Source: Phoronis australis
Taxonomy: Eukaryota > Animalia > Phoronida
DNA: 64,000 nucleotides
NCBI GenBank assembly: GCA_002633005.1
Contig: NMRA01000402.1
Span: 146,138 to 210,137, forward strand
Direction of reading: 5' to 3'
The translations under genes and the position numbers were made by a program. How positions within the stretch are numbered: position 1 is the stretch's first letter; the number at the start of each line of letters is the position of its first letter. Shown here in pieces: positions 12,304 through 54,574 of this stretch. Below the pieces are notes generated by a model. The model was not told where the DNA came from. It saw only the letters and a list, made by a program, of their open reading frames with translations, and searched no databases.

Positions 12304-12354
12304 ATGCGGGAGCCGTTGATTTTCCTTTCTGTATCTTTTATTTTTATATATCAG
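12304..12354 (+). CDS. Exon 1: signal peptide (MREPLIFLSVSFIFIYQ)
   Basis: aaaATG context, hydrophobic stretch, CAG/gtaaat phase-0 donor joining in frame to MDVVDG-RG. Confidence 0.75.
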
Positions 12355-15300
12355 GTAAATGGCTCATTCATAAATTAGACGTATCTTTTATTTTTATATA
12401 TCAGGTAAATGGCTCATTCATAAATTATACAGGTCACATGTAGAACTGGCTGTGGTGTATTATTACCGAAGTATATTTTTTCTTTAATTCTGCCAGTTAG
12501 AACTAATAGGACATGAGCTGATCAGGATAATTAAGGGGCTGTAAATTTAAGGCCAGCTCGAAAACCAGCATCTGTACAAAATAGCTACACATGTACATGT
12601 ATATGAACCGTTGTGCAACAGTTTCATGCGTGAGAGAATTTTCTTATGACGAAGTGTTAGATTAGTGTTTACTGTTTTAGATGGATGTTGTCGATGGAAG
12701 AGGTAAAATGTTGGTTCGATTTCTGGAGTACCAGAACCCTGGAAATATCGCCTTCAACGGCCAGTGTTGTGATGGGGAAAAACTAAACGATGGCACATGT
12801 TTTGAGTCGTGCAATCCCGTCTTCACACTCTGCCTTAAACGCAATTCGAGGTAAGCGTAATTTTTCTGTTCGAGAAGCATTTCTATCGTATTCTTAAGCT
12901 TAAAACCTTTCCATTCTGTTAAAATTTCACCCAAAATGGAATTTGGTAACTTTACTAAAACCTCTTGGACTTGAGATACTTTGTTTCCACAACTGTTTCT
13001 TCGTTGTTGACAAGGAAGGTTAATCCCGTACTGTAACGACGAAGTACCTAAATTTTGATCAATACTATAATGTACTTTCTGCAACAAAATTGATCTTAAC
13101 ATGTTCCATACACTGTAATCAGATGATGAGTAATTTTTGTGATCTTGGAAAGAAGTTTTGTTTAATCGTTCTTTATTCCTCGAGGCAAGCATCCAAGAAT
13201 ATACGTAAATAGTCACTGAGATAATTTTTGTAAATCTTTTCTAGGCCGTGATGTGATCATAATTACTTGGCTAAACCTTTTTTGGCAATTACGACGTGGG
13301 AGCGTAAAACAGAATTTCTTTGTTAAGTCACTTTACGATACAGGCTGCTGATCTCAAACGAGTATAAAATATTCCCAGTTCTTTACAAGCCCCAAAATCC
13401 CAATATTTTGATTTATAATTAAATTGAGACAACGTTCATAACGGAAATAGTCTAAAGCAATGATTATTGTTCTTTGAGAGGAGTCCTGGGTAGAGTTCAG
13501 TAACGCTAAGACCTACGCTAGGACTTCGCTATAATCTAGCCAAAATCATGCGTTCTCATTTAAACTACACGGCAATACCGCACGTAATCTTATAAACGTT
13601 ACTGAAGCCTACCATGATTTATTGACGTTTTTAGTATAATGAAATAAATGTACACGTAAACTACTAGCAACAAGGATCATGCTGTCCGTAGAAGATTATT
13701 AGAATCCGTGATGTACACAGAGTTAAGATGAAACCGTATTTCAGCACGGCTACGGTAGCTGTCAGTACACTTTTAAAACTATATAATATATGGTGTCTGT
13801 GCAAACAGTTGGGCAACTGTTCTACAGGTGTATAGATCGTGTGCAAGGTGAGCAACGATATACCATGTTACCTTTGTTATGCGTTATCATGGAGACCACT
13901 CAAACATTAATTTTTTAACTCTTTTTCTAACGCTTTAATAAATTTCGTGTTTGTAGTTCCCCGAATAATGCCCCATGTGATGGCAGCTATGGGAAATTTG
14001 TCGTGGAACAGCATAGGGAGAACATCCGATTTCCAGAGCGAGGATCTGCAATTTCACTTGATTTCAATCGATGGAAGGTACGTGTCGTTCTCCCTGACTT
14101 CCCGCCTGTTTTTCGACTTGTTTTACCTAATTGTACAATACCTGTTTCTTTACCTGTCTTACCATTAGCTCCCACCCACTTGCCCACCTGGCGATTGAGG
14201 GGGATTTAAACACCCACCTCTATCAGGATGTTTTGATTTATTATTACGGCTTAATATTGTTTCTTGAAATGTTTTTTGCACATCAAATCGCTTTTACGAA
14301 CGCACACCTCTTTGTGTTCCCAACTTACTAAAAAGCGTGCCTTTTCCGTGTAGGAAACTCTTTCCTGTACATTTGTTATCTGTCATCTGCGTGAGAAACT
14401 TTAACAAACGTACCGGTACTATTTCATGTTCGCTTAACCATATGCAGACATTCGAAGCTCATTTTCCAGAATAAAAAACGCATTAAAACCATCATTTGTA
14501 TGGAAAACACAGTGTCCAAACATCTTTTATTGTTAAGCCGCCTAGAAAAAAACACGCGATTTCCACTTAATAGTTTTTGGAGTATGTCCGATTGTTTTGT
14601 TGCTTAGTTACAGATAAGATCGCTGTCGACTGTTATCAAGGAGTGGTTTCACATCCAGTGTCTTATCAGTGAATACGAATTGAATTTAATTAAAACTCAG
14701 ACGTATGAGCATTTAATTGGCTCCTCGTGAAATGATCAATCAAATGAGGGGTGGCACACAATATGTTTGTTTACAAGTACGACTGTCTGTCAGTGGAGGT
14801 ATTAGAGACAACGGGCGATTTTTTGTTGCCCATCCTTGTTATGTTAGAAAAATGGTTTATATACCTATTATAATATTAAGATTTATACATTATTTTAGCT
14901 TACAATAGACATCTCAACCACACTCCATTTTTCTAACTAACTAGCTAGAACCCCCTCATCAGCAAAATATTGTCCTAAATAAAGGTGTGGTTCAAATGAT
15001 TTTGTAGAAAGTATACAACTGACTGCGCTTACGTGTATTGCTAGTCAGGTTATATTGCGTGCTACTTCAAACAGCCAGTTTCAAACCCGAAGCGTAACAT
15101 TTCAAAAGCAATGAGTTTCATCTGAATTGAATTGTTTTCTGCTGTTATCTCGAAAGCAGATACATGTACAGTTGAAACAACAAATCAACCTGATTCACAC
15201 TATTGAATAGATGTTGTTTTCATTTATATTTATCACGGCTTCCCGTATACAAAATATTCAGCAAAATTATTCCATTGGTAGAACTAACTTCTGTGGTAGT

Positions 15301-18300
15301 ATATTTTATTGAGGATGCCCATTTTACATGTACGATGATCTGGGAAATAGAATGTTACGTAAAATGTAATTGACCAATCCGGCTAATCGTGGATTTCTAA
15401 GATTAATGAAAATTTCTGATCCCAGTGTGCTTAAAAACCTAATCAAATTTGTTTATCATGCTTCTATTTTAAGACGAAAACTACTTGACGATTGAAAGTA
15501 CATGTACTATACATGCGAATGCGTATTTACTGTATTTTATTGTTGTGTTTGATATGTACATGCAAGTACTGTGGGCCGATGGCCTCGAGTATGAATAAAC
15601 GTTTCTAATTTAATAACTGGTGTGTAGACATAAAAAGGTATTTAAATCAATAAAGACCTTCACGTTTTTATGTTTGGATTGTCAGAGCGTACCTGAAAAA
15701 CGTACATTGTCACGTTTTCAAAATGTTACTTCCAGTGTAGATATCTGACACGAAAAAGGTATGGTTGTGTAACATCTAGACAGGAACCACAACTATAAAA
15801 CACAAAATGCAACAAATCGTTATTGGATTGCGATATTGGTATGACATTGTTTAGATTTATGGACAGGCGGCATTTGGTTTTTAAGGAATGGTTGAAAAAA
15901 ACAGTTGCGAATTTTAGTTGAACAAGCTTTCAGAATGTGTAAGCGATGAAATCCACACGCCACAAACTTCGAATGTTTACTATCTTTCACTGAAAGTTCG
16001 TCTTTGTGCGGCTAATTATGGTATCTCTTGAAGTTCATGGTTATGAATATTAGTTGAAGTTTTGGTTGGCCAGAAAAAGTAAAGGAGACTTAACCGATTC
16101 CTTTAGGTTCAGGTACGAATTTGTTGTTTGGTAGCTCATTGGTCCTTGTACCATTATTACCAAGATGAGGGAGTAAAATCTATACATGTAATTCGGCTGG
16201 CGCCCATTAAAAGTGTGCGGAGAAAATTCAAAACAGTCTTTGAACTTGAGGTCGCGTTTTGGGGAGTAAAATTCGAATTCGCGTTAGGCGCTTGAGGATA
16301 GCCGGATAAAGTGGCAATAGACAATCTGAGATCACATTAGAGTGGCTGCAATTTGTCCAATCGGTCGTTGCCGGCATGGTGTGTGAAATGGTAACCCAGA
16401 ATGACCAGTTGCGAAGTCACTGATGTGTTTATTCTAGGTTCTAGTTTGTCACACTTTTTATTATTTTCTTTAATGTACTTGGCTTCAACTGGTGAGGCCA
16501 AAACTGTACCAAAAGTATTGTGAAATATAAAAGCATTAGGTGTACACGTAAGTAGTACCTTGATATACCTACACATGTAGTCAAATAACTATTTGTTATA
16601 AAAATTGCGCGATCACCGTAAACGCTTCTTGTAATATTTGTCTGCAACTTGCAATTTATTCATTAATTCTTCAGCTAAACTTTTTTGAATTTTCTTTTAA
16701 GACCTTTACTCTCAAACGTGACGTTTAAAAACACTACATCGAAATTCCGCGAAAATGGAATTCTCCACTTTTGACATCGGAATATTTTGGATAATGCTTG
16801 AAGTAGTGTGACCCTTGCCATTCAAAGACGCGTCATCGTTTTAGGGCCGAAAAGGTTAAAGTTATAAGACTTGAGTAGTGCTAAAAAGCACATTGTGTTT
16901 TTATGATTTTATTGCAAATCGTCGATTCTCCTCGTTGTCTGCTTGAAGTTCACTGAAATAAAGCTGGTGACTTTACCTTTTTCCATTTAAGACACCCTGT
17001 CGTTGATTTAGTGGGATTTAACTCCTCCAACATAGCGTTATGTGTGCGGCCACGGGGGTTGCAGGTTCGATTCTGCGCCCAGATTATCAGAAAACCACTT
17101 CTATCGCCGATTCGGCCCTCACTACACGAAAGACGTTTCACATTGAAAGTTAAATAGCATTAAATCGAGTGCGGTATTTACAGTTTCACTGGCCTGGAAC
17201 TGACTCACATACGTTTATTCCTCTGGAAAGAACAAGTACGGCCATGCAACGTATTTCTGAGTTTTGTGTATGTAACCTCGGTCACTCATGTACATGATTT
17301 TGTGAGCAATTTGAACCGCTGTATGACATTATTTTTATTTTGGTAGATTCCTATTGGAAAATTAATCCGATAGACCACAATGTTGTGATGCTTTGATCTA
17401 CAATGTTGTAGGGAAATGCTACCATTATCATAGAAGTACACGATTACGACACCGGGGCAGACGAACTTGTGGACAGTTTCGTGTTCAACCATGCGAAGAA
17501 AGAAGCGAGTGCAAATGAATACGTAGCAGAGGCTACGTGTGGCTGGGGAACACCAACTAAACAGAGTGGGAGAAGAGGTGTACGGCCATCCACGTGAGTT
17601 CTTTTGTAGCCGAAGGTACTGTCATTTGAAACGTGACTCTAGCTGCAGTTACAGCGGAAGTGAGCAGAACTACTCTCGCTGCATTTTCATTGCAAAAATT
17701 TCTAACCATGCTCGCACCCAGCCTAAAATATACGGGGCTAGAATTTTTCATTGTGTGGAGTCCTCACTGAAAAATAACGGGGAATAAAAAAAACGCTGTC
17801 TTATGTTCAGACTTATGAATTGTGCATTAGCACCAACTTCTTGTGGACTTTTGTTGCGTTTTCTAGGTCTTTTTGTTTCTCTAAGAAGGACCTTTTTGTC
17901 CACTTTGCCAAATGGGGGTCTCCCTCGAGCCCTCCCCGAGCCCCCCGGTTTTGCACATGCTAACGGTAGTGTTAAACATTCACCTAAATCCTGTACCCTA
18001 TAACCACCTTCCGTAAAATCTCTGCAGTAGAACTTCGTATTATTGGTGGCTATTATTCAGTTGCTAGTGCTGTAGGTTTGTTGGTGTCGGCAAAAACGAA
18101 TATTAGCAAACATGGGTAAGGAGCGCATCATTGGCACACAAACATTTTCATTGGCGCACTGGTGATTGCTCAACTCGGGTCAAATGTCCCATTAAAACTG
18201 TGTTAGCAATCACATACATGTATAAAACAACTGCATTGTATTTTACTTTGCATTAGAAATATTATTTATTACATTCAGATTTTGACAGGACGTTTGGTGT

Positions 18301-21300
18301 GAAATAGCAAATCAAAAATTCTACGTGACCAAAGCAACAAGGGCAGAGCACCATTACACGTCGTGTAACGTACTGAGTTAACAGTCGAAATCTCTCGACA
18401 AAGATGCCGTCCTAAAAAATTCAAAAGGGCTCTCTAAATTAACTCGTAGATTTGAGGATCTGCCTATGTTTTCTAAAACGTCTCCTGGGCTCGGTCTCCA
18501 ATCTTTTTACTCGAAATGGAACTCGAAATTAGGTTTGGCATTTTCTACTCTACTTTTGGGCGAACTCAAGATAAGTGTCTATTATTCTATGCTCGAGTAC
18601 ACAATAACTTACGTAGATAATTTATTGCCCTTAGTTCACAGTTTGTAAACCCAATATTAAAGCAATAAGTTCGAGTTTGAACTCGAAATTTCGAGTTTTT
18701 ACTCGAGTTTGTAGCACGAATATAAGGGTCTTCAAGGGCAAACTTGAACTAGAAACTCCTATGCATAAACTATAATGTATTCGAGCACAGTCTGATAACC
18801 AATTATCTTAAGTTCGCACAAAAGGAGCAGAGAAATAGCCAAAAATAGTTTCGAGTTCATTTCGAGTACAAAGATTAGAGACCGGGACCTGATATTTGAA
18901 GTGAGGTTTTAACTCTTCATCAATACGTCGTTCAAAATTGAATAAAGGATCATAGTTTTATTTCCCTCGCGCCAGACAACTATATTTCAAAATCACTCGT
19001 GACTACATATCTTACCAGTCAGGTAAATAATAATTTTGCTGTTGCAAAGAAACGTCTTTAGCTTGTTTCTTCATTTATAAATTAAGTAATCACTTACTAA
19101 GGCAGGATTTGTCCTGTTATTCAAAATTCAAGTCAAATATGGCGTTCCGGGGGTTATGAACATGCTTACTTGTAGATATCAACGTTTGAGATTTTCTGTG
19201 CTAAAGCGCCTACTGAATAATGTATTACACCAACTCATCCGTACTTGCGGAGAGCCAAGACTTGACGTGTTTGATACCCGGAATCCGGGTTCTAAAAACC
19301 AAAGCTGTTTATTTATCAAGTTTGATTCAGTCGATCAATTCAAGTTTTGGTTTTTGGACGACGCATTATTTTGGAGACTTGTTGGGTAATTACATTTTTC
19401 AAAGTTTTGTGCTGCGCTTTAATTCAATTCTGGCACAATTTCAGTCTAACGCTGTGTCTCAACCCATACTGTGACAAACATTACTATACGGCGGATTGCT
19501 CTGTGAGATGCGTACCCCAAGATAGCTGTGCCGGGCACTACAACTGTGATCAGACGGATGGCAGTAAGATATGTCACAGTGGATGGGGTGGTGAGAACTG
19601 CGACCAGCCTACGAAGGACTTCTTAGGTTGCAAAGGTAAGGCATGCTTCTATGAAAGCATCCTAATTACACCAATCCTCAAGTGAAATGTGAGCTATTCT
19701 TGCCCAAACGGTAGACGGAGGCGGAGAACGCATGGTTAATTTAATCCCACAACTCAAGCAGACCGGGTGAGGAAGCTATGTACAGTGTACACTAGTGTTT
19801 GGTTTGGTATAGTCATGCCGCAATATATACGTTTACACTCCCGTGATACAGGTGTATACTGTATAGGTCAGATGTGGACCAAAAGTATCATGCTAGTCTA
19901 CTGCATCCTCAAAATTTAATAAATTTTTGATTTATAGAACTCTCTCAACGTTTGACAAACACACATCGGGTTAGCTTATTGATTTTTTGTTTTGGTATCC
20001 TAATCACTTTACGTTTACTTTTAGCTGGATCTAATCCTTGCATGAACAATGCAACCTGCATCCCATACAAGACAAGCTCTTATTGCTGTTGTCCACCAGA
20101 CTGGAAGGGGAGGAAATGTGATGTCCCTGTTTCGACTATAACTACAAAATCGTCGACAATCCCGTACACCAAGGCTATATCCACCGCCAAGTCAACGCTT
20201 ACTTCTACACCGACAAGTTCATCACAAATCACACCTGATAGCACGGCGCTAACAGTTACCCAGACGCCTTTGGACTCCAAAACATCGTGGCCAACGACAC
20301 CTATAACTATCACCAAATCATCATCTCGATTCACCATCGATGTTTTCCCAGAGTCAACAACAAAACAGTCTTCGCTCACACAAAAGGCCACAACGACATC
20401 TTTGAATTTCTCCAGCACCTACAGAAATGTAAACCAGACGTCGACGCGACCTCCAAACACGAGTGTTGAGAACCCACTTACTACCACGAATTCACCTCGG
20501 CTAACAACGCATACAGAACCATGGTCACACACTAGCAGTGTAATTACAACAACAGCTGTACACTTGTCCTCCACAACATCATCCCCATTTACGATTGATG
20601 TTTTTCCAGAGTTAACCAAACAATCAACGCAATCAACGTCTAGCAGAATTTCTACTGCAATGCCGACCAATGTTTCTTCTGTATCACTTTCGAACGTAAC
20701 CATAGGGAACCACAACGATTCGTCGGGCTCCACTACTAACGTGCCTCTAACATCACCTACCGACGTCACTGCTTCAACCGAAGCAGAAAATAACCTGTTT
20801 ACAGATTCATTTACGTCGTCAATGGCATCGTCTACTCCAAAAACTGAAACGACATCCAAAGACTCTATAGTATCCACGACAACACCATCGCTTTTTACAA
20901 TCGACGTTGTTCCAGAGTCAACGAAACTTTCCACGCCTACCCATGTAGCATCGACAAAGTCCAACAAGAGTTCTGTTACGTCTACTTCAACACAGCCATC
21001 TTCAAACGCAACTGGTGCAAAGCTAATTAAATCAACACTTTTTACTACAGAAAGCCAATCGACGGTGTCTTTCTTGAGCCAGATAACAACGACAGACGCA
21101 TCTGAACAGACTACGCCACCGTCAGAGAAGTCGACCCCATCTTTCACACTGTCAAGTACGACTTCTTCTCTATTTACGATAGATGTCTTTCCAGAGTCAA
21201 CCAAACAGTCTACGTCTAGTAGAATATCTACAACGTCGAACAGTGTTTCCGAACCACTTTCGAACGCTACTACAGGGAACTACAACGATTCTTCGAGGTT

Positions 21301-24300
21301 AACCACTAACGTGCATCTAACATTACCTACCGACGTTGCTGCTTCAACTGACGGGGAAAATAATCAGTTTACAGATTCATTTACGCAATCAATGACATCG
21401 TCCAATTCGAGAATTGAAATGACATCTGCAGTATCCACGACAACACCGTCGCTTTTTACAATCGACGTATTTCCAGAGTCAACAAAACACTCACCGACAG
21501 TTCCTAATACAACGTCTACAATTGACAACAGGACCAATGTAACAGGAAACGCAAACACGGCTTTAGCAAGTTCTACCGCATCTCCGAGAAAGACGCCGAC
21601 ACCTTCTCTAAGGACAACTGTTCAGCATCCTAACAATTCTTCGAGCGCAGTGGTACAGTCAACTTTGACGCCAAGTCAAGCAACTGCCACACTGGTGACC
21701 GCGTCAACTGCCTCTTCCAATACAATTGATGTGTTCCCAGAGACAAATTCATCATTGGGATACAGGACAACTACTGCAGAAAATAGATCATCATTGTCAA
21801 CGAGGTTGCCCAAGTATGCAAATTCTACTGATCAGACCACGCTTCAGTCTACCGATGTAATCTTACAGACTACCACTGCAATGAACGCGGTAACCCAAGC
21901 AACGTCTCAATCGCACACGTCTTCGAAATTGAGCAGCTTAGTAACGACAGGAAATGTTTTATTGTCAACTACAGCAACAGCGGTCACACAAACTCGACCA
22001 ATGGGAACGCAAACAAACCAGGCATCAAGCTTTTCACCAGTTAATGCCAACCTCACTCTAGCAAGTACCACAACACCAGGCAAACCCGGATATGTCACTG
22101 GGAGAGTTGAGATCAACATTATACACTGGCAGGAAAAGCACGTTTTGCTACTACTAAAGCGCTCACTTCTCTCAGCATGGGTGAAACAGAACCGCGAGTT
22201 AGCGAACGACACGTCAGGAATTGTTATAGAAAGTATCCAGAAAGCTCTTGGAGATAATGGGTAAGCTTTGTTCTGATCATCTTTGTACTGGCTGACTGTT
22301 TAGTCTTGCGTTGTTCCAAGCAGTATGAAAACGTACGCAAAATTTTTGATGTTTTCCGAGTTCAAAGACAGCATTATGGGAAATACTGTATGCTGGCAAA
22401 ATGCTTAATAATCAGAAAATTTTCACCATCGTATTTTTAAATCTGTTGTCCTTTTACTTAGTGTCAAATGTATATATGGCGTAACCTTGGGTGTGAACCT
22501 GAGCGCAAAATTCAATAGAACCAAACTTGCAAGTGTACATGTAGGTTGAATTTTTATTCCAGCATTCGCCTGACAGTTTATACTTATCGTCTCAAGTTTC
22601 CAAGTGACGGAAGTGTTACCTCGCTTACAGTGCCCGGTAATGTAGTGGTTCAGAAGGAACTCAACAAACACATCGTGCGACACGTCATTTACACTGGTGT
22701 AAAAGTCACACTGTATAAATATCACTACAAGCTGACCATTAATGGGACTGTAACGGAGAACGAATTGCCTGATATCACACGAGCTATAAAGGATGCATGG
22801 TTGACGATATTTGCAAGTATGTTAACATTGTTCAAAATAAATAATAACAATGTTCTGAAATTCCAATGCTTCCGGGAATTCTACTTTGTGTGTTGTGGAC
22901 AATTTGACTAGATTTATTTTAAACGGCTGTATAATTCTTACTGATTTTATTTTTTTTGCATTTAAATACTACTGTCTTATAAAACGGTTCGTCCAAACTG
23001 TAGCATTATTCCGTTCAAGTATTTTATCCCTGCACGAAGCTAAGACACATGAATAGCAGGATTCGTAGATATATCCGTGTTCTTCGTTGAAAATCGTGTT
23101 TTTAAATGCATGTAATGTAACTACTCGTTTTCGAAGTCATGGGACTAGCAATGGATATTTTTCTTTCAGGAAATCTGACGGTTGATACGGCACGAGTTGA
23201 TTACTCAAATAGGTTTGTCATCTTTTGCGTTTCTGTTTTGTACACGTATTGGATGTTTAGAGTTCGTGTTCATGAATTTCTCGTCCACTGCATGTCTAGC
23301 CCGGTTTACTGCTGAACAAATATGGACGTATAGGAAATGGATATAAACAGTACGTTAGTAACATTCTAGAAAGTGACATGCAAATGTTTACAACTGAAAG
23401 TTAATTGTTGCATTATTTCCAGAACGAGCACAACTGACGTCATATACTTTGTACGTGTTAACGGTACCTTAATTGACCCCAATGATGTCTCTGCACCCAC
23501 AATTAAATGCCAAAGATTTGTCGCTTCAACCGTCACCACAGCGTCATATGCCACCGCCACAAGCAGCCAGGGATTAACCACCACGGATATTTCCATGAAG
23601 ATAACTGTTCAACAGACGACTACTCCTCCCAAAACCATAGACGTGTTCTTACAGACGACGAGCGCTTTGAAAACGCCATCCAACCCACCAAATAGCCAGT
23701 CGCCTGTCAACTCAACCCTCACCCCCAACACTACCGCAGCACCAGGAAAACCAAGCTACGTAACTGGAAGAGTAAAAATCAACATAGTACACTGGCCAGT
23801 GAAGCACTCTCTTTCACAGCTAACTCGTTCACTTCTCTCGGCATGGGTTGCACAAAACGGTCAACTTGAGAATGACACGTCAACAATCATTATAGAGAAC
23901 TTTGAGCAGGCTTTAGGAGATGATGGGTATGTCTGTCACTCAATTTTACACAGGCGGATTTGGGGTGTTGCATGGAAGGGGGGCATCCATAATTTCCAAA
24001 CAAAAATTGCGTAGTTCTTCAAAAAGGCCTGCCGGTGGCGTTTTTCGATCGTGTCCGTAAGTGGTGGGATGCAGGTCGGTGGAAGGGGGCCCTTGAGTTT
24101 CGCTAAATCTGCCTACATGTATGTGGCACCCTATAGTTTCTGAATATGCAGCGTAGATACAGTGTAGAGTAGACCACGTGCAGGTGGAATCTCCTTACAG
24201 TTTTACTAGATAACAAACGAAGGTAACTTCAGGGGCCTCGGTCTGATCTCGAAATTGTACAAGACTTTTTTTATAGTTTCCGTCTTACTTTATAATACAA

Positions 24301-27300
24301 AGTCAAGAAACATGTATTTTACTCTGCCTTCGATTATACTATGGTTTGCACAGATGGGTGTCTAGTTCAATTCGTTTGCACTTGATGACTCGTAGATTCG
24401 AGCCTCAAACTCGAGTTCAAATCGAATTCAGACTTGGAACCTTAGACGAACCAATAGCATAAAGCTGAGGTCACCATGTACAAAATACGATATTTAGAGA
24501 TTCACTCATGCAAACTATAATAGTCTCTAGCACAGAACAATAAACAGTTAGGTCGAGTTCGTAGTTTTAAGTACAACGAAAACTGTAAACAAAGTTTCGA
24601 GTTCGATTTTGAGTAGAAAGGTATGACCCTGGTACCCCAAGTGATTCTCAGATGAACAATAACAAAGTTTTGGAGCGTATCAAATTACTGCCTATGGTTT
24701 GCATGTGCGAAAATTAACATTACATGCACAAGGCATTTCTTAATACAATGTATCTCTGATCTAGCTAGGAAAGGTCTGGCCCCTTGAAACTCAACATTAG
24801 AGAGGACGAAACGATCAAAAAAAGGGGAACTGGTGCAAATCATTCCACATGGCCAGTTTGATTCTGAATTATAATTATAGGATTTTCGTATTTTACCGTA
24901 TAACCGCGCAATTGAGTGCATGTGCCTACATGCGGGACATTTGAGTGGGAACTGAGAGTTATTCAATCGGCAATCGAGGCTGAGCGCTTTCTTGAAAATA
25001 AAGCCATCAGTTTTAAAACGGTATCATTTTAAAGTCTGACCGTTACTCTAAATTTTTTTATTTCAACCAAATTGTCACTGACGCCAGTGGCGGATTTAGT
25101 GGGGGGGCAAGGGGGCCATGCCCCCCTAAAGTTCTCCCAGATTCCATCTGGTAGTTCGGGGTTGCGATTGTCTAACGCCCAAAATCCTGGCTAATACTCT
25201 GCCTTGCCCCAAAATTTCAAATCCTTCAAACGCCCCTGAACGCCATACTCTTTGTGAAATAAAATGGTTCGGTAGTGTATTTTTTAAACATCTAGGTGCA
25301 CTTAATTGCAGGACTTAGGTGTTTGCGCCTATACACGGGACATTTGCGGAAAAACGCATTGCGCTGCATAGAGGCGCAAGCGCTTATTTTCGGGGTTATG
25401 CGGTAACCGGACATGTGAATTTGTGCAATGTCTGTCTTTTAGCACCCAGCTTGTGACAAGACAGAGATAATCGTCTGAATCGTCATCACGTTTTGAAGTC
25501 AGTCAATGTAAACAATTGTTTTCGTTATAAAAGTAAGTACTAATAAAATTGTTGAAAATCAGTTTATCGTACATTTTTACATTCCAGCGTTCGCCTGACA
25601 GTTTATACATATCGTCTCAAGTTTCCAAGTGACGGAAGTGTTACCTCGCTTACAATACCCGGCAATGTAGTGGTTCAGAAGGAACTCGACAAACGCATCA
25701 CCCAACACGTCATTTATACTGGTGTGAAAGTCACACTGTACAAATATCACTACAAGTTCACCATTAATGGAACTGCGGCGGAGAACGAATTGCCTGATAT
25801 CACACGAGCCATAAAGGATGCGTGGTTGACAATATTTCCAGGTATATGTATGTTAAAATTGTTCGAAATAAAATTAAAATAACACTGCCAGAAAATGTGT
25901 TGCTCCCATTAAGCCTACTTTACGTGTTGTGGATTTTATCAGCCGATTTGACTAGATTTTTCAAAATAGTTATATACTCTTTACTACAGTTAAAATATAT
26001 GGATATTTCCTTTTTAATACCCGTTTCATATACATGTCAAATGTTTCGTCTTAATTCTAGGAATATTTCGTGTAACTATTTTACATCCGTACATAGATAA
26101 GAGTCTGTAGTAGAGGGAGTCAAGAGACCTACTTTGTTGAAAATTACGTTTTGTATTAGATGTGCGCTTACTACATTTGTTCGATGATATGGGACTAGAT
26201 TTGGATACTTTTCTTTCAGCAAATCTGACTGTCGAGGCGGCTCGAGTTGATTACTCAAATAGGTTTGTTATTTTTTGCATATTTATTTTGAATTCACTTA
26301 ATGGGTGTATACAGTTATCGTATTTCTAATCCACTGCATGTTTTGACTGTTTTATTGCTGGAAACATGAACGTTTCGTGCATGGATGTACGCAATAACGT
26401 CATTCACATTCAACACAGAGACATGCAGATATTTGTTAATGAAAGATAAACGTTACATTATTTCCAGAACGAACACAACTGACGTCACTTACTTTGTACG
26501 TGTTAACGCTACGTTAATTGATCCCAAAGATGTCTCTGCGCCCACAATTAAGTACCAAAGGTCTGTCGCTTCAACCGTCATCACAGCGTCATATGCCACC
26601 ACCACAAGCAGTCAGGGATTAACCACTACGGGTAGTTCCATTAACACAACTGTTCAACAGGTTACTGCAACTCCAAAAACCATAGACGTATTCTTGCAGA
26701 CGACGAGCGCTTTGAAAACGCCATCCAATCCACCAAATAGCCAATCACCGGTCAACTCAACCCTGACCCCCACAACTGTCACAACACCAGCGAAGCCCAG
26801 CTACGTAACTGGACAAGTAAAGATCAACATAATACACTGGCCGGTGAAGCACTCACTGTTACTGCTAACTCGTTCACTTCTCTCGGCATGGGTTACACAC
26901 AACGGCCAACTTGATAACGACACGTCGACAATCATTATAGAGAATACGAACCGGGCTTTAGGAGATGGTGGGTAGGTATATCTCTCAACAACTGATATTT
27001 TATTGTAACGGATTTAGGGTGTCGTAATGAAGGTGAGCCAACCACAAATTTTAACGGAAAATTTGATAGTTCTTAAAAACGGCTAGTCTGTGGCTATTTT
27101 CGATCATGTCCGTAAGGCCCGGTGATGTTTCAATGGAAACGGTCCCCCGGGAGTCTCTAAACGCTTTTATGCGGTGCCATGAAGTTCCTGATATGCAACG
27201 CAGTTATAGTATAAAATAAATCGCGTGCATGTACATGTAAGTGGTGCCTCTTTAACTTTTTACCGCAGAACAAGCAAAAGTAACTTTTGGAGCTGCGGCT

Positions 27301-30300
27301 TGATCCCGAAATTGTACTCGAAATACCTTTTCACGTTTTCGTCCTGCGTTTTTTGATACGAACTCAAGAGAAAAGTCTTTTATTCTGCCCTCGTTCATAC
27401 CATGATTTACTCAGATAGGTGTCTAGTTAAAGTTTGCACTTGATGACTCGTAGCTTCGAGCTATAACCTCGAGTTCAAACTCGAGATTTCGTGTGTAGCC
27501 TCGGAAATAAAAGCTTTAATGCTGGGGTTATCAAATGCAAAAAGGAGTAGATATCCAGTAACATAAACTATAATACACTCGAACACAGAATAATGTTGAC
27601 TTCGTACTGAAGCAGATCGGACAACGTCAACATGTTTCGATTTCAAATTGAGTACTTAGGTTAGACTATGAGCGATGATTTCACTTCCACAGGAAAAATG
27701 CCAAAACTTTGGAACCAAGAAAATTAATGTGTGTGTGCTTTATATGTACGAAAACTGACATTCGTGACGATAAACATCACGAACTGCAATGCCTACGACT
27801 AAACTAATTAGTGTCAACATTCTTGATAATGGCAAATTATCATATATATATTCTGTATTTTTTATATTCCAGCGTTCGCCTGACAGTTTACACTTATCGT
27901 CTCAAGTTTCCAAGTGATGGGAGTGTTACCTCGCTTAGAGTACCCAACAATGAAGTGGTTCAGAAGGAATTCGACAAACTCATCACGAGACACGTCATTT
28001 ATACTGGTGTAAAGGTCACACTGTACAAATATCACTACAAGTTCACCATTAATGGAACTGTGACGGAGAACGAATTGCCTGATATCACACGAGCAATAAA
28101 GGATGCATGGTTGACGATATTTCCAGGTATGTATGTTAAAATTGTTCAAAATAAATAATAACTCCGCCTGTAAAATGTGCGGCTTCTTTTAAGCCTACTT
28201 TGCGTGTTGTGGATTTTAACAGCGGGCTTGACTAGATTTTTCATACTAGCTACACACTTTTTACATTTTAATACCCGTTTTATATACAAGTCAAGACTGT
28301 CGTCTAAATTTTAGGGATATTTTGTTTATATATTTTGCACCTAACTATGACCCCGTAATAGAGGGAGTCCAAAGACATTTGTACTTTTTGGAAAATTATG
28401 GATTCTAATGGGTGTGTGCTACATGTAACTACACTTGTTCGATGTTATGAGACTAGCTTTGGATATTTTTCTTCCAGCAAATCTGACTGTTGATACGGCA
28501 CGGGTTGATTACTCAAACAGGTTTGTTTTCTTTTGCATTTTCGTTTTATATATACAAATTAGGTGCATTAAATCTTTTTAATGTATTATTAATCCACTGA
28601 GTGTCTTGACTACTTCATAACTGGAAATTCGAACGTGTAGTGCATGAATGTACATGTACGCAATAGCGTCATTCACATTCAACAAAGAGATATTCAGATA
28701 TTTAATACTGAACGATAAACGTTGCATTATTTCCAGAACGAGCACAACTGAGGTCATTTACTTTGTACGTGTTAACGGTACCTTAATTGATCCCAAAGAT
28801 GTCTCTGCGCCCACAATTAAGTACCAAAGGTCTGTCGCTTCAACCGTCAACACGGCGTCATATGCCACCATCACAAGCAGCCAAGGATTAACCACCACGG
28901 GCATTTCCATGAAGATAACTGTTCAACAGGCGACCACAACTCCAAAAACCATAGACGTATTCTTGCAGACGACGAGTGCTTTAAAAACGCCATCCAACCC
29001 ACCAAATAGCCAATCACCGGTCAACTCAACTCTGACCCCCACCACTGTCACAACACCAGGGAAGCCCAGCTACGTAACTGGACGAGTAAAGATCAACATA
29101 ATACACTGGCCTGTGAAGCACTCACTTTCACTGCTAACTCGTTCACTTCTCTCGGCATGGGTTACACACAACAGCCAACTTGATAACGTCACGTCCACAA
29201 TCATTATAGAGAACACGGATCGGGCTTTAGGAGATGGTGGGTAGGTATATCCCTCAATAACTGAGATTTTGCACAATGGATTTAGGGTCTCGTAAGGAAG
29301 GTGGGCCCACAATTTTTTAAAGGAAGAATTGGGTAGTTCATAAAACCGGCCTGCCGATTGCCTTTTTCGATCATAGCCCTTAAGGCCGGAGAAGAGTCAA
29401 TGGAAGTGGTCCCCTCAGTGTCCCTAAACGCGCCTATGCGGTGCTGTGAAGTTGCTGAATATGCAACGCTGTTATAATATGAAATAAATCGTGTGCATGT
29501 AAATGGTGCCTCTTTTCCGTTTTGTGCCAAAACAAGCAATTCTAACTTCTGGAAATGCGGTTTCATTTGGAAATTGTACTCGAAATTATTTTTCATATTT
29601 TGTGTCCTAAACTTTTAATAGAACTCAAGAGAGGTGTCTTTTATTGTAGCCTCGTGTATACTATGGTTTACTCAGATACATGTAGGTGTGTAGTTCAAGT
29701 TTGCACTTGATGACTCGTACATTCGAGCTGTAAACTCGAGTTTAAACTAGTGATTTTGTGTGTAGCTTCGGAAACAAAAGCTCTAATGCTGGGGTCATCA
29801 AGTGCAAAATGAGATTACATATACACTCACGTGAACTATAATACACTCGAATACAGAGTGATGGACAGTAATGTTGAATTCGTACTGAAGTAGATCGGAA
29901 AACGCCAGCATATTTCGATTTGGATTTTGAGTAAAGCAGACTATAGGCGAAGATTTCACTCCAGGCGAAAAACGCCAAAGCTTTGGAACGAAGAAAAATA
30001 CTGTGTGCGCGTTACAAGTACGAAAACTAACATTACTTTCTTGACCCTAGATATCACGCACAGCAATACCAACGATTAAAATTAAGTTGTGTTCACATTT
30101 TTGATAATCACGATTTATCATATATATTATGAATTTTTTATACTCCAGCGTTCGCCTAACAGTTTATTCATATCGGCTCAAGTTTCCAAGCGACGGAAGT
30201 GTTACCTCGCTTAAAATACCCGGCAATGAAGTGATCCAGAAGGAACTCGACAAACGCATCACGCGACACGTCATTTATACTGGTGTTAAGGTCATACTGT

Positions 30301-33300
30301 ACAAATATCACTACAAGTTCACCATTAATGGAACTGTGGTAGATAACGAATTGCCTGATATCACACGAGCCATAAAGGATGCATGGTTGACGATATTTCC
30401 AGGTTCGTGCATGTTAAAATTGTTCAAAATAAATAATAACACCGCCCTTAAAATGTACTGCTTAGAGTAACCCTACTTTGCGTGTTGAGGATTTAACAAC
30501 CCATTTGAGTAGCCATATATTTTATACTGCTTTCAAAATATTTTCCTTTTTAACACCCGTTTCCTATACAAGTCAAATGTTTCGTCTAAATTGTAGGAAT
30601 ATTACGTCTAAATGTTTTACATCTGCGCCTAGCTAAGACCCCGTAATAGAGGGAGTCAAGAAACATATGTACGTTGCTGAAAATTACGTTTGTAATGGGT
30701 GTTTACTAACTACACTTGCTCCATATTATGGGACTAGCTTTGGATATTTTTCTTTCAGTAAATCTGACTGTTGATACGGCACGGGTTGATTACTTAAACA
30801 GGTTTGTTTTTTGCATTTTTGTTTTGATACACGTATTGCTTGTATACAATTATCGTATTTCTAATCAAATGTATGTCTTTAAAAACTTATCGCTGGGAAT
30901 AAGAACTTGTAGTGCATGGATGTACGCAAAAACGTCATTTCCAGTCAACACACAGATATCCAGATATTTATTACTGAAAGATAAACGTTACATTATTTCC
31001 AGAACGAACTCAACTGATGTCATTTATTTTGTACGTGTTAACGGTACCTTAATTGACCCCAAAGATGTCTCTGCGCCCACAATTAAGTACCAAAGGTCTG
31101 TCGCTTCAACCGTCACCACAGCGTCATATGCAACCACAACAAGCAGGCAAGGATTAACTACTACGGGTAGTTTCGTTAATATAACTGTTCAACAGGCGAC
31201 CACTTCTCCAAAAACCATAGACGTGTTTTTGCAGACGACGAGCGTTTTGAGAACATCATCCAACCCACCAAATAGCCAATCACCTGTCAACTCAACTCTG
31301 ACCCCCACAACTATCACAGCATCAGTGAAACCCAGCTACGTAACTGGACAAGTAAACATCAACATAATACATTGGCCGGTGAAGCACTCACTTTCACTGC
31401 TAACTCGTTCACTTCTCTCGGCATGGGTTGCACAGAACGGCCAACTTGATAACGACACGTCGACAATCATTATAGAGAACACGGGGCTGGCTCTAGGAGA
31501 TAATGGGTAGGTATATCACTCATAAATGAGACCTTACACCGGCGTACTCTCCAACAAAGATTAATAGACCGTCCAGATACAATGGTTTCTTGCCCTGTAT
31601 GGGCGTAACTCGTGTTATTGCTCATTGTATTTTTCCTAATAAACATTAAAATTATGTAGACAGTAATATCGAGTTCCTACTGAAGTAGAACGGAAATTGA
31701 CAATATTTTTCGTGTTTTTTTTAGTAAAGACCCTGGGCGACGAAGTGAAGAAATCATTCGCACGTGAAAATACCAAAGCTTTGAAACGAACCAAATTATT
31801 GACAATGACTTACATGAACAAAATTAACATATAAATTTGAATTGATAAATATCACTTACAGCAGAGCGTGCGAAGAAAATAGATACTGCAGTGTTTAAAT
31901 ATTCTTGAAAATAAGCATTTACCATATATTAATATTTTTAAATTCCAGCGTTCGCCTGACAGTTTATACATATCGTCTCAAGTTTCCAAGTGACGGAAGT
32001 GTTACCTCGCTTACAGTGCCCGGTGATGTAGTGATTCAGAAGGAATTCGACAAACACATCGTGCGCCACGTCATTTATACTGGTGTAAAAGTTACACTGT
32101 ACAAATATCACTACAAGTTGATCATTAATGGAACTGTAACGGAGAACGATGTACCTGATATCGCTATCGCCATGAAGAATGCGTGGTTGACAATATTTCC
32201 AGGTATTTCTAAGGTTGCACCGTCGAATTATAGTTAGTTGGTAAATAAAATACATTTCTGCTTCTTACTTTGTTGTCTTGAAAAAAACTGCTGTTATATT
32301 AACAATGCGACACAATGTCCACATTTGATTTTAAAGTAAATTTATCGCCATTCATCCTGGACCAGAGACATATGTAAGCAATATCTAGGTGTGCATGTAG
32401 TTATATGGTGTACCGTGCATCCAACACGCTTTTGAAGAATTTGTGCATTTATGGCTTGTGTTTCAGATAACCTGACCATTGATGTTGCACGAAACGACAC
32501 AATTTTTGAAGTGACAAAGTAAGTTTTTAGTAATTAGTTTCAACGTTCTTGGGAATTATTTCGCATGATCTTCACTGATAGTATCGACCACAGCAATGTT
32601 ATATGTAGCTCTTTAACAATGCGCAGACGGCTACAAACCACATTGGCATTATTTAAGCAAATCGAGTCATTAATTCAGGCAATGTTCTTTTCAGAATCGA
32701 GTACACACGCTTGACTTACTTTGTTCGCGTCAACGCTTCGCTAATAGACCCGGAAGTTGTCCCTCCACCTCTAGTTCTGTGTGAGAAGCTTCAAAAACTT
32801 GGGCTTATTCTACGCCAATGTGCAAAATCATCGGATATGACAACGTTGTCGCCCGGTTTCTCCACAACTGACTTCGCGTCTACCGACCGTACGATGACCT
32901 CTACCAACAGAACCTCTGTTGACACCACCGTGGCCACATTGCTCTCCACGACGACGCCTGTAAAATCTTACGTTACCCGCGACGTCACAGTTACCCTTTT
33001 TAAGTGGAAAGCAGATCACACGATACAATTAATAAAGACGGCTCTTGCCGCCGCATGGGAAAAGTCGGGCCTTCAGCTGTCCACCAAAAACGTTTCCGTC
33101 ATTATGCAAAGTGTGGAAAATGCTTTAGGCGACTATGGGTAAGGGTTTCTCACTTCACGTGATTATATTGTTTTTCTCTACCGATTATAGATTTTGATAG
33201 TGCACATCAATTTTCTTCGTCATGCCAGAGAGTGCTGATTCTCAGCCACACAATTTCTAGATTTTTTGTAACACATAGGTATTCCCGAAAAATGTTCCAG

Positions 33301-36300
33301 ATCAACCACACTGTGTTTTGTGCAAATACCTGGTAGTTCGATTATCACTCTAATGGTAGAAGTTGCAGAGAAACTGGGGGAAATTAAGACAACAACATTC
33401 TAATTTGGAGCATCTGCACTTTAGTTAATAATAACCACCCAGTAGTCGATGCTTAGCATAACAGCAACTCGCCAAATGGGACCTGGCAAAATTCCTAGAT
33501 CGTCAAGAAAGAACTGAGGTCGACAAATCAAGGAAACTTTGTATGGGCTGTTGCGGGTGTCCGGCTTATCCCTGCAAACGTACCGTGGACTCAGTAATGT
33601 TCAGGCAGGGCACCCAAGATCTCGCAGACGGCATTTTTAGTCGAATGGCAAATTGAGAGTATGTCACTTGTTCAGCAACAACCAATTTCGGGCAAAATAC
33701 CCCGCACAGGTTTACTACTAAAAAGATTCGTGAACTGGTTCTTCCGTATTTTACCGAATGATTCCAACTGATGTCTTTCTAAAATACTTTGATTCGTTCT
33801 CGAATGTGGGCTTGGCCAAGAAATTGAGTACAAAAATACTGTTGAGAATGTAAATACAGTTTATAGCATTTCACACTTACTTGCAGACGGAAAAACAGCA
33901 ACCTGTAAGTCATAATTCCTTAAAACTTTTTCAGTGTTTACGTTTCGATTTTTACCTATCGGATCACGTTCTCGAGCGCAGAACCAGTGACGTCACTCAC
34001 CATTCCATCAACAGTACAAGTTCAAACAGAGCTCGACAGGTTCACCAAAGGTGCAAAGATCTACACTGGAATCAAGCTGACACTCTACAAATTCCATTAC
34101 AAACTGGATGTTCTCAAAAAGACAGTCGGGTCACAGATAAAGAACATTTCAGACATCATATACAAGGCATGGTTAACTAAATATCCAGGTAATTTACTAT
34201 TTGGGTAGTGAATTAACACCGGTAGACTGGTGCGCTTAGTTTGTATTTACATTCAAAAATTTCTCAGCGATCAAGGATGGCTGAAATAGCAGAAAATAAA
34301 CGATATCAGCGACCTCTGGATTCCACCAAAAGCACTGTAATGCTATGATCACTATTACGATTATCGCTTCACTGTTTCTTCTTGTGTAATACATGTACGA
34401 CATAAAATCTTCCGTCTGAACAAATTTTAGCAGTAGAGTGTTTCCATGTGGGCACTTTTTGTTCCAGTCAACCTAACCATTGACGTCGCCAGAATTGACG
34501 ACATGATTGATAACAAAAAGTAAGTACAATTTGCAAACTCCAGACCATAGCTTTACGTAGCATGTCTCCGAACTGAACAACAAAATAATTAACTGTTTGT
34601 GTACAAAGATTTGTATTTCGCCGGAAACATCTTAGTGAACTGTTGTCGCATGAGCCAACGCCTCAAGTAACGGGTAATGCGTACATTTTCCTTTATCGAA
34701 TCTGCAGTTTTATGGTTGGCCAGCCCAATAAGCTCTGGATTGATTTCTTCGGTCATTTATGGTTTCGATGTTTTTGTTGGTAACTAGAATAGAAACCTAT
34801 CATGGCAAGGAATAACATGAGAGTCAAAGTTCTAATTTGGTTTTTGTTTTAGCCAGCTACAGAGGTTGGAATGCAGCCTTAACTCATTTGGGTACATATA
34901 CGTTTATAGGTATAGCTGTCAATTCAACTTAATGGCTGACTAACTGCATACCAAGTCCTTATACTGTGATCTGCTTGCTGTAGAAAAGGATATGGAAGGT
35001 CGTTTATGAGTTTCTCCACTAGCTACAAACGTGTCGTTTTACGCATTTTTACGGATTGTCTTTATCTAATTTTTTAAAAAAATAAATAGATACCTAGAGA
35101 AAGTTGCATTAAATTTACTGGAAGAACCGTAGCAGTTTCCGCGGAATTCCATTTGTGGTGAATGTGTTAAATTGGACCGATTTGTTAACCTTTTCTGTCC
35201 AATACTTTGAAGCACAGCCGATGCAGAACGCCAAGCATCCTTACTTTGTACCTTTCAGTGTTTCTTCCGTTCGCATAATTTACTTCGTGAGAGTTAACGG
35301 TTTGTTGATCGACCCCACACATGTGCCGCCTCCGCCCATACTTTTCAAGAAGTTGCAAGAACTGGGTATAAAGGTGATTAACGCAACCAACTCTACAATG
35401 GTCTCGACAACACCGAAAACCACGCCCTCTACAGTCTTTACACCAAACACTACCAATGTGGTTGCTGGATCAACACTTCCGGTAAAAACCATTGGGATCT
35501 TTACTCAAAAACACAGCACACGGTCACCAACTCAGAACACCATGTCTCCGTCACTGACAACCGACTCACTTGCCAACCAATCGACTTCACCAGCGGCCGG
35601 GAATCAAAAGACTTTCATAACTCACGAATTAACTGTTAACCTCTTCAAATGGAGAATTGACCTCTCTGTGGAATCCGTAAAGAAGGCGCTTGTTGCTGCG
35701 TGGGTGAGCTCCAATAATAACATGATGATCAACAGTACTACATTGGTGGTTAAACACACAGAAGATGCACTGGGTGATAATGGGTAAGAAGTTAACATAA
35801 CACATGAGCTACTAAAATTTCTCACACAGACTCCAAGATTTAAAGGAAGTACATATATTTTTAATTGATGCCGTTTTAGTCCATGCAACAATTGCACGGA
35901 TAACAATTTGCCAAATTGGAAACGCAATAGTAGTGGCCTATGCTTTCCTGCAATGTTTAAGGATTAGTTGAGAGCGTGCTTCTGACTTCAATATAAATTT
36001 ACTCACAGATACAACTCAATAGATCTATGCATATGTATATTGGCGAATACAGGCTTTGAAAGGAGACGTCACGCTTCATTCGTTGAAAGGTACATTCTTA
36101 GTGGGATATTTTAACGGTCGTCTTATCATACGCTGAATCTTCTTGTGTTATGCAATTACCGAGTCTTGCGAAGTAAGAACACGCGTATACCTGCGCCAAT
36201 TTCCTAATGCTACAGTGTTTTGTTATTTCAGGGTGCACGTTACCGTATTCACTTACCAAGTGAAAGTTGTTAGCCGCACCGTCCTCACTTCAGCAGTACT

Positions 36301-52321: not shown

Positions 52322-54116
52322 CGCCGTCAAACCTTCGATGCTGATTTTCCTTCGGATCTGATCACCTTGGCTTCCGCTACCACTTGCCAACGCATTTGAT
52401 ATTGTAATATTTGGATGTTTAGAAACCAATTGTATGCTGTTTGTTTGTTACGCGGTAACGCAATAAGTAGATTTTTTTCACGTAAGAGTGTCTCAAACCT
52501 ATAGGACTATGCATCGTTCTGTTTCTTGACGTGGTTGAATTAACACACGTGGATGCATGTATAGTGGCGGATAATGTAGATATTTGTTTATTGTATTGAC
52601 ACTGTAGAATACGACGTAAGGTTGTAAGGTTGCCGTTTGGAGAAGAGAACGCGCTAAAAATTTCGTAGACCTGACCGATTCCTTCGCATCACGCCATTTA
52701 TGTAAGGACTAGGTGTCCCCCTGAACTCAGTGTCTTGCCTAAATGTTCTTGAATGGAGCATCCACGCATTTACCGAACGACTCACGGGACCGTATTTAGG
52801 CAATCAAAGAAATTCAGGTAACACATTGAAGACGTTTCTTGGGTTTTCTGTCTTAGTACACAACCTTGCCTGATCAGCATCCGATGATCTCCCTTCTTCT
52901 GGCGGTTACCAACATCTCCACCAGACGATGACATATCAGATGAGTGATTCCACACTAATAGCTCCGTGCTTTACAACCGCGGACGTTCATTTCCAATACA
53001 CCCTACCGAGAGGGAGATTATGTCATGTCTTCAGGGGACAAACAATATAGAGTGAACTAGACCCACGCATTGGACTGATACTCGATTATTCGATGTTTTT
53101 CTTGTAGCGGACAGGACAAACACTGTGAAGTAATCCATACAAAGTCTCCCTTGTATGATAAGGACGTGGAATCGTAGACAGTGACATTAACGGGCCAGTA
53201 GTTATTTGTTTTTTTTCGAAAGATATCGAAGTCCTTCTCCCTTTGTTTTCTGAAATTGTTACACTTTTTGCCTTAGTTTTGGGCTCATCAATTCTCTCTT
53301 CCGATGTAGGATTTCTTGAACTTGTTTGGAAACCCATTTGAGGTCTTATAAACCTCAGTCAAATTCTAACTGCACAGCATCAGGCTAGAGTTATGACGTC
53401 AAGGGAAGGGGTGGCAAAACCCATCTTGTTTCTCATCTCGCATATGGTATTACTGTATACGTAGTCCAGTTGCTTCTTTAAACTGGAAAGCGTTGACTAT
53501 CGTAGCATCAGCGCTATTATTGGGCGAAAGATTATAGTAGGTTAAGAAGAAAGAGAAGTGTGTCAGATTACCTTATAAGTTAATTGCACTTATTTAAGTT
53601 ATCCGGTTCTATGCTGTATAGTCGTCATTTTAAATGATTTTCAGGTTGGGTTTGGTGCGATGTGATTAACAAAACTCAAAGCAGGGTATATTTTTCTCAT
53701 GTCATCAATTATGAATGTTATGTTTACCGTTTATACTACTTTGGTATGGGAGTACCGATTCACTGGTGTACATTTTACATGCTCACAAAATGTGCACGAT
53801 GAGTTACTCGATGGCAGGTGTATTTGATACTGTGATAATCAAGGAGTACCTTGTATCTTCAGTGTACTTTAAGCCAGACAAAATTTCGGAAATGGATTAT
53901 GCCTTCATCAGATTGTACGAAGTAATGATTCTGTGGTCTTGTATTGTACACAAAAACAAATTTTATTACCAATTGTTATCATGTATAAACTATTTTGCAA
54001 CGTGACGCGGACAATCGCTGCCGAATGGTCGTGTAAGGAGACGCCATTTTCAATGTGGGAACGTGAAACTTTTTCAACTGGTAATATGACTGAACACGAA
54101 GTTACTTTTTTGTATA

Positions 54117-54122
54117 AATAAA
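54117..54122 (+). promoter_or_regulatory. Candidate polyadenylation signal for the giant DSL-mucin gene (~1.8-kb 3' UTR)
   Basis: AATAAA preceded by ttttttgta and followed by T-rich sequence. Confidence 0.4.
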
Positions 54123-54546: not shown

Positions 54547-54554
54547 TATAAATA
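54547..54554 (+). promoter_or_regulatory. TATA-box-like element upstream of the orphan ORF
   Basis: TATAAATA 28 nt before the ATG at 54575. Confidence 0.3.
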
Positions 54555-54574
54555 GAAATTGGCCACTTGCAAAA

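What the first reader, a model, noticed from the sequence alone, without database searches (positions are those of the whole stretch)
24114..29684. Paralogous introns capture repeated TA -> TACATGTA insertions: probable Tc1/mariner excision footprints
Seen: five sites where one duplicate has TACATGTA and a sister copy has only TA. They are 24114 (gccTACATGTAtgtgg vs gccTAtgcgg at 29435), 27232 (vs ~29500), 28420 (gcTACATGTAactacac vs acTAactacac at 30707), 28651 (vs 26388) and 29677 (agaTACATGTAggtg vs agaTAggtg at 27416). At least three (24114, 28420, 29677) have no pre-existing CATGTA, so slippage cannot explain them. Established: Tc1/mariner elements duplicate TA and many end in CA...TG, so repair after excision can leave TA-CA-TG-TA. 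Inference: a very high historic rate of insertion and excision (five scars in a few kb of young intron), or another site-specific 6-bp insertion process acting at TA.
Basis: partly seen in the sequence, partly recalled or inferred. Interest (0 to 1): 0.8.

Follow-up and report, generated by a model that had tools for sequence, protein, structure and literature searches.

The report
Six-letter transposon scars, one still polymorphic
In this invertebrate animal's DNA the word TACATGTA keeps appearing as a six-letter gain at TA sites, and one site differs between two alleles; these are likely scars left when a Tc1-type jumping gene hopped out, although that gene was not found.

Summary
Observation confirmed. 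All five sites are exact 6-base length differences between intron copies of a tandem mucin-like repeat. Three cannot be slippage; two are exact tandem duplications and could be. TACATGTA occurs 27 times in 64 kb against 1.6 expected, and in none of about 11.9 kb of approximate exons. It accounts for 4 of 29 indels between the two copies compared over a full unit, against 338 substitutions. A dispersed MITE copy polarises 29677 as a gain. At 39954, outside the finding, contigs from two runs of one sample lack exactly these six bases, so the site has two alleles. TACATGTA is a documented germline Tc1 excision product in C. elegans (24 of 103 frame-restoring revertants, PMC4490562 supplement). 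Best reading (0.68): excision scars of a Tc1/Tc3-type element with 2-nt overhangs. Against it: no TA-flanked CA...TG element in the window, no excess of one-sided scars, and no genome to search. This scan noted the same pattern earlier in urchin, bivalve and oyster DNA (unchecked notes). It is a known scar at unusual density and uniformity.

The parts
24114..24121 (.). TACATGTA in unit U1 intron; six bases longer than U2 and U3; not a tandem duplication; lies at the right end of an old MITE-like inverted repeat (about 23948-24123)
   Evidence: polarity weaker because U1 is the most divergent unit
27232..27239 (.). TACATGTA in unit U2 intron; absent from U3 (29500) and U1; compatible with slippage
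28420..28427 (.). TACATGTA in unit U3 intron; absent from U1, U2 and U4 (30707); not a tandem duplication
28651..28658 (.). TACATGTA in unit U3 intron; absent from U1, U2 (26388) and U4; compatible with slippage; one contig of run X1 lacks six bases here (allele or further paralogue, not resolved)
   Evidence: (table 4)
29677..29684 (.). TACATGTA in unit U3 intron, inside a decayed copy of a high-copy MITE; absent from U1, U2 (27416) and the dispersed MITE copy; not a tandem duplication
39954..39961 (.). TACATGTA with an allele six bases shorter; single-copy depth; not a tandem duplication
   Evidence: left out 6 in a 1632-bp contig of X1 (12 other letters) and a 1709-bp contig of X3 (13 other letters, 6 gap letters in all)
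26031..26038 (.). Candidate older, decayed scar: U2 has a one-mismatch form, U3 and U4 a two-mismatch form, and U1 lacks six bases here; not counted
9966..61606 (.). Field of 27 TACATGTA words (9966, 10327, 12594, 15161, 15325, 15499, 16183, 18215, 22536, 24114, 27232, 28420, 28651, 29677, 34390, 38563, 39954, 40515, 41889, 43228, 50096, 50579, 56025, 56276, 57671, 59096, 61599), none in approximate exons
22557..33142 (+). Tandem units U1-U5 (three exons each, Thr/Ser-rich third exon) of a gene with upstream DSL and EGF-like exons; the duplication that exposes the indels
18487..18891 (.). Dispersed copy of a very high-copy MITE; serves as outgroup for site 29677

Best explanation
The TACATGTA words are six-base gains at TA sites, likely the scars of a Tc1/Tc3-type cut-and-paste transposon that inserted and later left. 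Shown here: gain of CATGTA at TA, recurrence, an allelic difference at one site, absence from exons, and avoidance of TA sites preceded by T. Established for Tc1: insertion duplicates TA, and excision leaves non-complementary 2-nt 3' overhangs on the flanks; joining that keeps both overhangs gives TA-CA-TG-TA. Inferred: (1) a family with CA...TG ends and a 2-nt stagger is or was active in this germline; (2) repair here mostly either keeps both overhangs or restores TA invisibly; (3) most insertions were later excised, since no retained element was found beside about 25 excess scars; (4) the process has run for a long time and was active recently, since transition-decayed forms are in excess and one site has two alleles. 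The two duplication-compatible sites could be slippage or re-insertion into a TA next to CATG.
For: 27 against 1.57 expected. 5 of 5 alignable array sites are private to one unit. 4 of 29 indels and 4 of 5 six-base indels between U2 and U3, against 338 substitutions. Constant insert with unrelated flanks at 27 sites, 24 of them not duplication-compatible. Outgroup MITE copy is empty at 29677. Shorter allele at 39954 in contigs of 2 runs of one sample. T at -1 or A at +1 in 7 of 54 half-sites against 32% of background TA, p 0.001, the direction of Tc1, Tc3, Minos, Mos and SB targets, which have A before TA (PMC2577343 table). One-mismatch transition neighbours 28 against 11.1 expected, transversions 27 against 27.2; outside the array 17 against 9.2. 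C. elegans Tc1 breaks have 2-nt non-complementary 3' overhangs, and the TACATGTA class was 24 of 103 revertants in repair-proficient worms, 10 of 36 in lig-4 and 3 of 39 in polq-1.
Against: No TA-CA...TG-TA inverted-repeat element among 14,365 candidate end pairs up to 6 kb apart; the best was 14 of 20 matches, with about 1 expected by chance. No Tc1-like transposase was recognised among the ORFs inspected (only 10 ORFs were scanned with Pfam). One-sided scars TACATA/TATGTA (46 against 41-47 expected after masking) and 3-nt scars TACAGTA/TACTGTA (12 against 12-13) are not enriched, whereas C. elegans shows 26 distinct products in 103. The wider Tc1 target consensus is not matched: position -2 p 0.33, -3 p 0.15. 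Variants with 1-10 extra bases are only mildly raised (37 against 23) and the reversed control is raised too (30 against 19), so this is inconclusive. 40515, 41889, 43228 and 38563 keep the word in the contigs listed over them. The indel tables were truncated (11 and 28 rows not shown), so the share of polymorphic sites is unknown. Seidl et al. call the footprint rare and reject it as the source of the abundant Phytophthora motif.
Confidence: 0.68

Rival explanations
1. A TA-targeted process inserts the four bases CATG with a TA duplication directly, with no long element ever resident: for example abortive transposition or capture of joined terminal dinucleotides by a transposase, a domesticated nuclease, or single tail units of a retroelement.
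For: One uniform product, no one-sided or 3-nt variants, and no parent element in 64 kb beside about 25 excess words.
Against: No such activity turned up in nine paper searches. The flanks share no common sequence that would mark a retroelement tail. The same product is made by ordinary Tc1 excision.
Confidence: 0.17
2. Replication slippage or templated repair duplicates six neighbouring bases, and the palindrome is a favoured outcome.
For: 27232 and 28651 (and 12594) are exact tandem duplications.
Against: 24 of 27 window sites, including 24114, 28420, 29677 and the polymorphic 39954, have no adjacent template. Duplication yields the word at only 21 of 4535 intron positions. Tandem Repeats Finder found no array of this unit.
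Confidence: 0.06
3. The word is a transcription-factor site (Irx-type homeodomain or Myb-type) built by point mutation, for example CpG decay of TACGCGTA, and kept by selection.
For: TACATGTA is the preferred Irx site as cited by Seidl et al. and is bound by PsMyb37 in Phytophthora sojae. It is non-coding here, and transition neighbours are in excess.
Against: Sister copies differ in length, not by substitutions, and no site is shared between alignable paralogues. TACGCGTA occurs 0 times. One site is absent from another allele. Selection could retain sites but does not explain how they arise.
Confidence: 0.05
4. TACATGTA is ancestral and is repeatedly deleted to TA through the 2-base TA microhomology.
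For: 39954 cannot be polarised from two alleles, and 24114 lies in the most divergent unit.
Against: 28420 and 28651 would need loss in three units and 29677 in two units plus a dispersed MITE copy. Deletion does not explain a 17-fold excess.
Confidence: 0.04

Closest known systems
Tc1 excision product TACATGTA of Caenorhabditis elegans (PMC4490562: passages and Supplementary Data 3 read in full; Eide and Anderson 1988 seen only as cited in PMC3520976)
   Same: Identical sequence: TA target duplication plus CA and TG from the two ends; heritable; net +6.
   Different: In the worm it is one class among 26 at one selected locus (the assay recovers only frame-restoring products) and is called rare by Seidl et al. 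Here it is the commonest 8-mer of a 64-kb window, about one per 2.4 kb, with no sibling scar enriched and no element found.
Sleeping Beauty canonical footprints cag/ctg between TA duplications (PMC5224488, figure-legend passage)
   Same: Stereotyped scar between duplicated TA after cut-and-paste excision.
   Different: The 3-base, one-ended scars TACAGTA/TACTGTA are not enriched here.
Phytophthora motif-1 / AM-20 TACATGTA (PMC3520976 and PMC11134190, passages)
   Same: Same palindrome, very abundant in non-coding DNA.
   Different: There it is read as a transcription-factor site and the footprint origin was dismissed without an indel test in the passages seen. Here the word is shown to arise as a 6-base gain.
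Natural excision footprints of the pogo-like Emigrant MITE in Arabidopsis (PMC1636448, passages)
   Same: Footprints seen as natural polymorphisms at TA sites.
   Different: Two cases beside many retained elements; here there are many scars and no retained element in the window.

Membership tests
Tc1/mariner (IS630-Tc1-mariner) excision footprint | Lies at a TA target with the TA duplicated | tested here: met
   Empty sisters have one TA, full copies two; allele at 39954
Tc1/mariner (IS630-Tc1-mariner) excision footprint | Is a gain relative to the ancestral empty site | tested here: met
   Parsimony at 4 of 5 sites and an outgroup MITE for 29677; 24114 and 39954 not firmly polarised
Tc1/mariner (IS630-Tc1-mariner) excision footprint | Added bases equal the terminal bases of a resident element | tested here: inconclusive
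   CA/TG match Tc1 ends, but no resident element was found in the window and no genome is held
Tc1/mariner (IS630-Tc1-mariner) excision footprint | A full allele exists or existed at the same TA | tested here: inconclusive
   None seen in the printed, truncated tables of two lays, whose DNA runs come from one sample
Tc1/mariner (IS630-Tc1-mariner) excision footprint | Palindromic target preference around TA | tested here: inconclusive
   T at -1 depleted, p 0.001; positions -2 to -6 not biased; compare
Tc1/mariner (IS630-Tc1-mariner) excision footprint | DDE/D transposase that cuts 2 nt inside the ends and produces this scar | not testable with these tools
   Needs the genome and an excision assay
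Sleeping Beauty-type 3-nt footprint | TACAGTA or TACTGTA scars | tested here: not met
   12 observed against 12-13 expected
Microsatellite slippage | Inserted bases copy adjacent bases | tested here: not met
   Met at 2 of 5 finding sites and 3 of 27 window sites only

The most novel reading that the evidence does not exclude
A hit-and-run transposon, or an element-free transposase reaction, acts as a standing germline mutator in this animal: it writes the same in-frame-sized palindrome at TA sites about once per 85 substitutions, leaves almost no element behind, and seeds non-coding DNA with a ready-made homeodomain/Myb binding word. The abundant TACATGTA motif of other lineages, such as oomycetes, would have the same origin.
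Probability: 0.35. Interest if true: 0.75.

Novelty: new variant of a known kind. Interest (0 to 1): 0.52.

Why it matters
Transposon activity is normally counted from retained copies. Here the scars suggest a large amount of traffic that left no copies: about 25 excess scars in 64 kb, and 4 of 15 indels of 2-19 bases between two paralogues. A fixed-sequence insertion with a known empty state is a low-homoplasy marker and a possible clock of past transposition. It also reports which end-joining outcome dominates in this germline. It offers a testable origin for a palindrome that has been treated as a regulatory motif elsewhere.

Tried and rejected
Whole genome: none held, so the genome-wide indel spectrum could not be computed. 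Parent element: an inverted-repeat search of the window and two TA-CA...TG-TA scans found none. An attempt to fetch related host DNA through a MITE motif gave 0 viral contigs and 1 metagenome contig, L001, with no BLAST hit to the window and no TACATGTA. RNA runs: no RNA holder listed; X5 and X6 had almost no cover outside repeats, so they were uninformative. Naming the animal group: two protein searches and one Atlas search gave no usable hit, so 'invertebrate animal' rests on gene content (DSL/EGF) and introns. Spacer variants of the scar: inconclusive against the reversed control. Using the left inverted repeat to polarise 24114 was weak. The unit tree is poorly rooted because U5 is a long branch. 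Rfam: 0 matches at gathering score. Eide and Anderson 1988 is not held. Paper searches for a genome-wide report of this scar in invertebrates listed none; the library omits most subscription papers, searches showed only part of their hits, and supplements were searched only for PMC4490562.
Full report
Setting. The window is animal DNA with spliceosomal introns. From about 12.7 kb to 50.4 kb on the + strand runs what appears to be one gene, with a DSL exon (Pfam PF01414, E 2.5e-12) and an EGF-like exon, followed by tandem three-exon units with Thr/Ser-rich segments. Units U1-U4 (22557-31900) are close enough to align through their introns and differ at 13-23% of aligned sites. No whole genome is held. 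Protein searches did not name the animal group.

Observation. All five sites are real. With the six bases removed, each aligns across the site to one to three homologous positions; 7 of 9 hits are gap-free and 2 have one gap opening. All five TACATGTA words that fall in alignable intron are private to one unit. A sixth, 22536, lies in intron that does not align with the sisters. 24114, 28420 and 29677 have no adjacent template, while 27232 and 28651 are exact 6-base tandem duplications. Between U2 and U3 there are 338 substitutions and 29 indels; five indels are 6 bases long and four of those are this word. A random insertion would give the word 0.06% of the time and a tandem duplication at 21 of 4535 positions, so chance is excluded.

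Beyond the finding. The word occurs 27 times in the window against 1.57 in shuffles and is the commonest 8-mer; the other fifteen TA-xxxx-TA palindromes occur 0-6 times. None falls in about 11.9 kb of approximate exons, where 5.0 were expected (p 0.004; exon bounds are my estimates from ORFs and alignments). One-mismatch neighbours are in excess for transitions (28 against 11.1) but not transversions (27 against 27.2), which fits older copies decaying. A candidate older scar shared by U2-U4 lies at 26031. Reconstructed empty sites avoid T before TA (7 of 54 half-sites against 32%, p 0.001), but farther flank positions show no bias. The first 8 kb hold no copy.

Polarity and polymorphism. 28420 and 28651 are absent from three other units, and 27232 from two. 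29677 sits in a decayed copy of a MITE whose dispersed copy at 18713-18785 aligns without a gap to the empty form, which gives an outgroup. 24114 is less firmly polarised. Four public DNA runs of one sample hold this stretch; they match the window without a difference over much of 9.8-22.6 kb, so they may be the sample the window came from. At 39954, contigs of runs X1 (1632 bp, 12 other letters) and X3 (1709 bp, 13 other letters, 6 gap letters) leave out exactly six bases, in a region of single-copy depth. That is an allelic TA / TACATGTA difference at a site without a slippage template. One X1 contig also lacks six bases at 28648, but in the tandem array it could be an allele or another unit. 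The contigs listed over 38563, 40515, 41889 and 43228 keep the word. The indel tables were cut (12 of 23 and 12 of 40 rows shown), so no polymorphism rate can be given.

Mechanism. A constant insert between unrelated flanks must come from outside the site. Tc1 excision leaves non-complementary 2-nt 3' overhangs (PMC4490562, Fig. 1 legend), and keeping both gives TA-CA-TG-TA. In that paper's Supplementary Data 3, which I read in full, this class was 24 of 103 germline revertants in repair-proficient worms (precise excision 25), 10 of 36 in lig-4 and 3 of 39 in polq-1. It is therefore a real heritable product that does not need LIG4 there; the assay recovers only frame-restoring products. I infer a Tc1/Tc3-type family with CA...TG ends, long active and recently active, whose insertions are mostly excised again. 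The repair route here is untested.

What argues against. No TA-flanked CA...TG inverted-repeat element lies in the window. One-sided (TACATA/TATGTA) and 3-nt (TACAGTA/TACTGTA) scars are at background, and longer variants are inconclusive, so the spectrum is narrower than in the worm. No full allele was seen. An element-free insertion process at TA therefore keeps a 0.17 share. Slippage can explain two of the five sites but not the pattern. A selected transcription-factor site (Irx as cited in PMC3520976; PsMyb37, PMC11134190) or CpG decay cannot explain length differences.

Comparison and novelty. It works like the Tc1 both-ends-retained footprint. Membership is met for target and polarity and unproven for the element. 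Paper searches (listings only, open-licence library) showed no report of this scar at genome scale in invertebrates. Seidl et al. mention the footprint only to dismiss it for the Phytophthora motif (passage). Papers seen: passages of PMC3520976, PMC2872659, PMC1636448, PMC2874221, PMC5224488, PMC11134190 and PMC2577343; passages plus one whole supplement of PMC4490562; Eide and Anderson 1988 only as cited. Earlier notes of this scan report the same pattern in urchin, bivalve, oyster and other mollusc windows, several saying the element was not found (unchecked, and not independent support). No note on the word came up for this genome.

Verdict. A real, non-random and repeated 6-base insertion at TA, most likely Tc1-type excision scars (0.68). 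It is a new variant of a known kind; interest 0.52.

Noticed in passing
window 18487-18891: Very high-copy MITE (summed contig depth thousands of times the single-copy level) with long internal inverted arms. Loose ends of related copies read AAACAC-CTG-GGCCCGG, resembling the PIF/Harbinger CWG target and ends (recalled, not tested). Decayed copies lie in the introns of U1-U3.
   Followed up: partly
window 25085-25230 and about 23948-24123: Short GGCGGATTTAG-ended MITE-like inserts in U1; the first is high-copy. hAT-like by recall; no clear target duplication.
   Followed up: no
window 46095-46307: High-copy repeat whose minus strand has a hammerhead-like core, CUGAAGA-stem-GAAA, as in Penelope-like retroelements (recalled). 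Rfam gave no match at gathering score.
   Followed up: partly
window 12681-50400 (+): Delta-like N-terminal, DSL and EGF-like exons followed by a long series of three-exon mucin-like units with a conserved non-Pfam domain; no homologue found in the protein search.
   Followed up: partly
window 9800-22614 versus 23800-46500: Contigs of the DNA sample are identical to the window in the first stretch but differ at roughly 0.1-2% of sites in the second: a boundary between apparent homozygosity and heterozygosity. A contig laid at 28141-28187 looks intermediate between U2 and U3, suggesting conversion or unequal crossover.
   Followed up: no
window 42919 and 3405: Single N positions; at 42919, contigs of two runs hold 220 letters in place of the N.
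   Followed up: no
window 523, 13109, 19781, 24158, 13823, 19847: TACAGTGTA/TACACTGTA and TACAGGTGTA forms are mildly in excess (spacers of 1-2 bases: 12 against 4.7). They could be longer scars from CAG-starting ends; no indel evidence.
   Followed up: partly
window 56300-61600 (-), 7404-7643 (+), 1124-1658 (+): ADAMTS-like exons, an amidase (FAAH-like) exon and a LINE reverse-transcriptase tail fragment, recognised by eye in translations; not tested by profile except 61247-61594, which had no Pfam hit.
   Followed up: no
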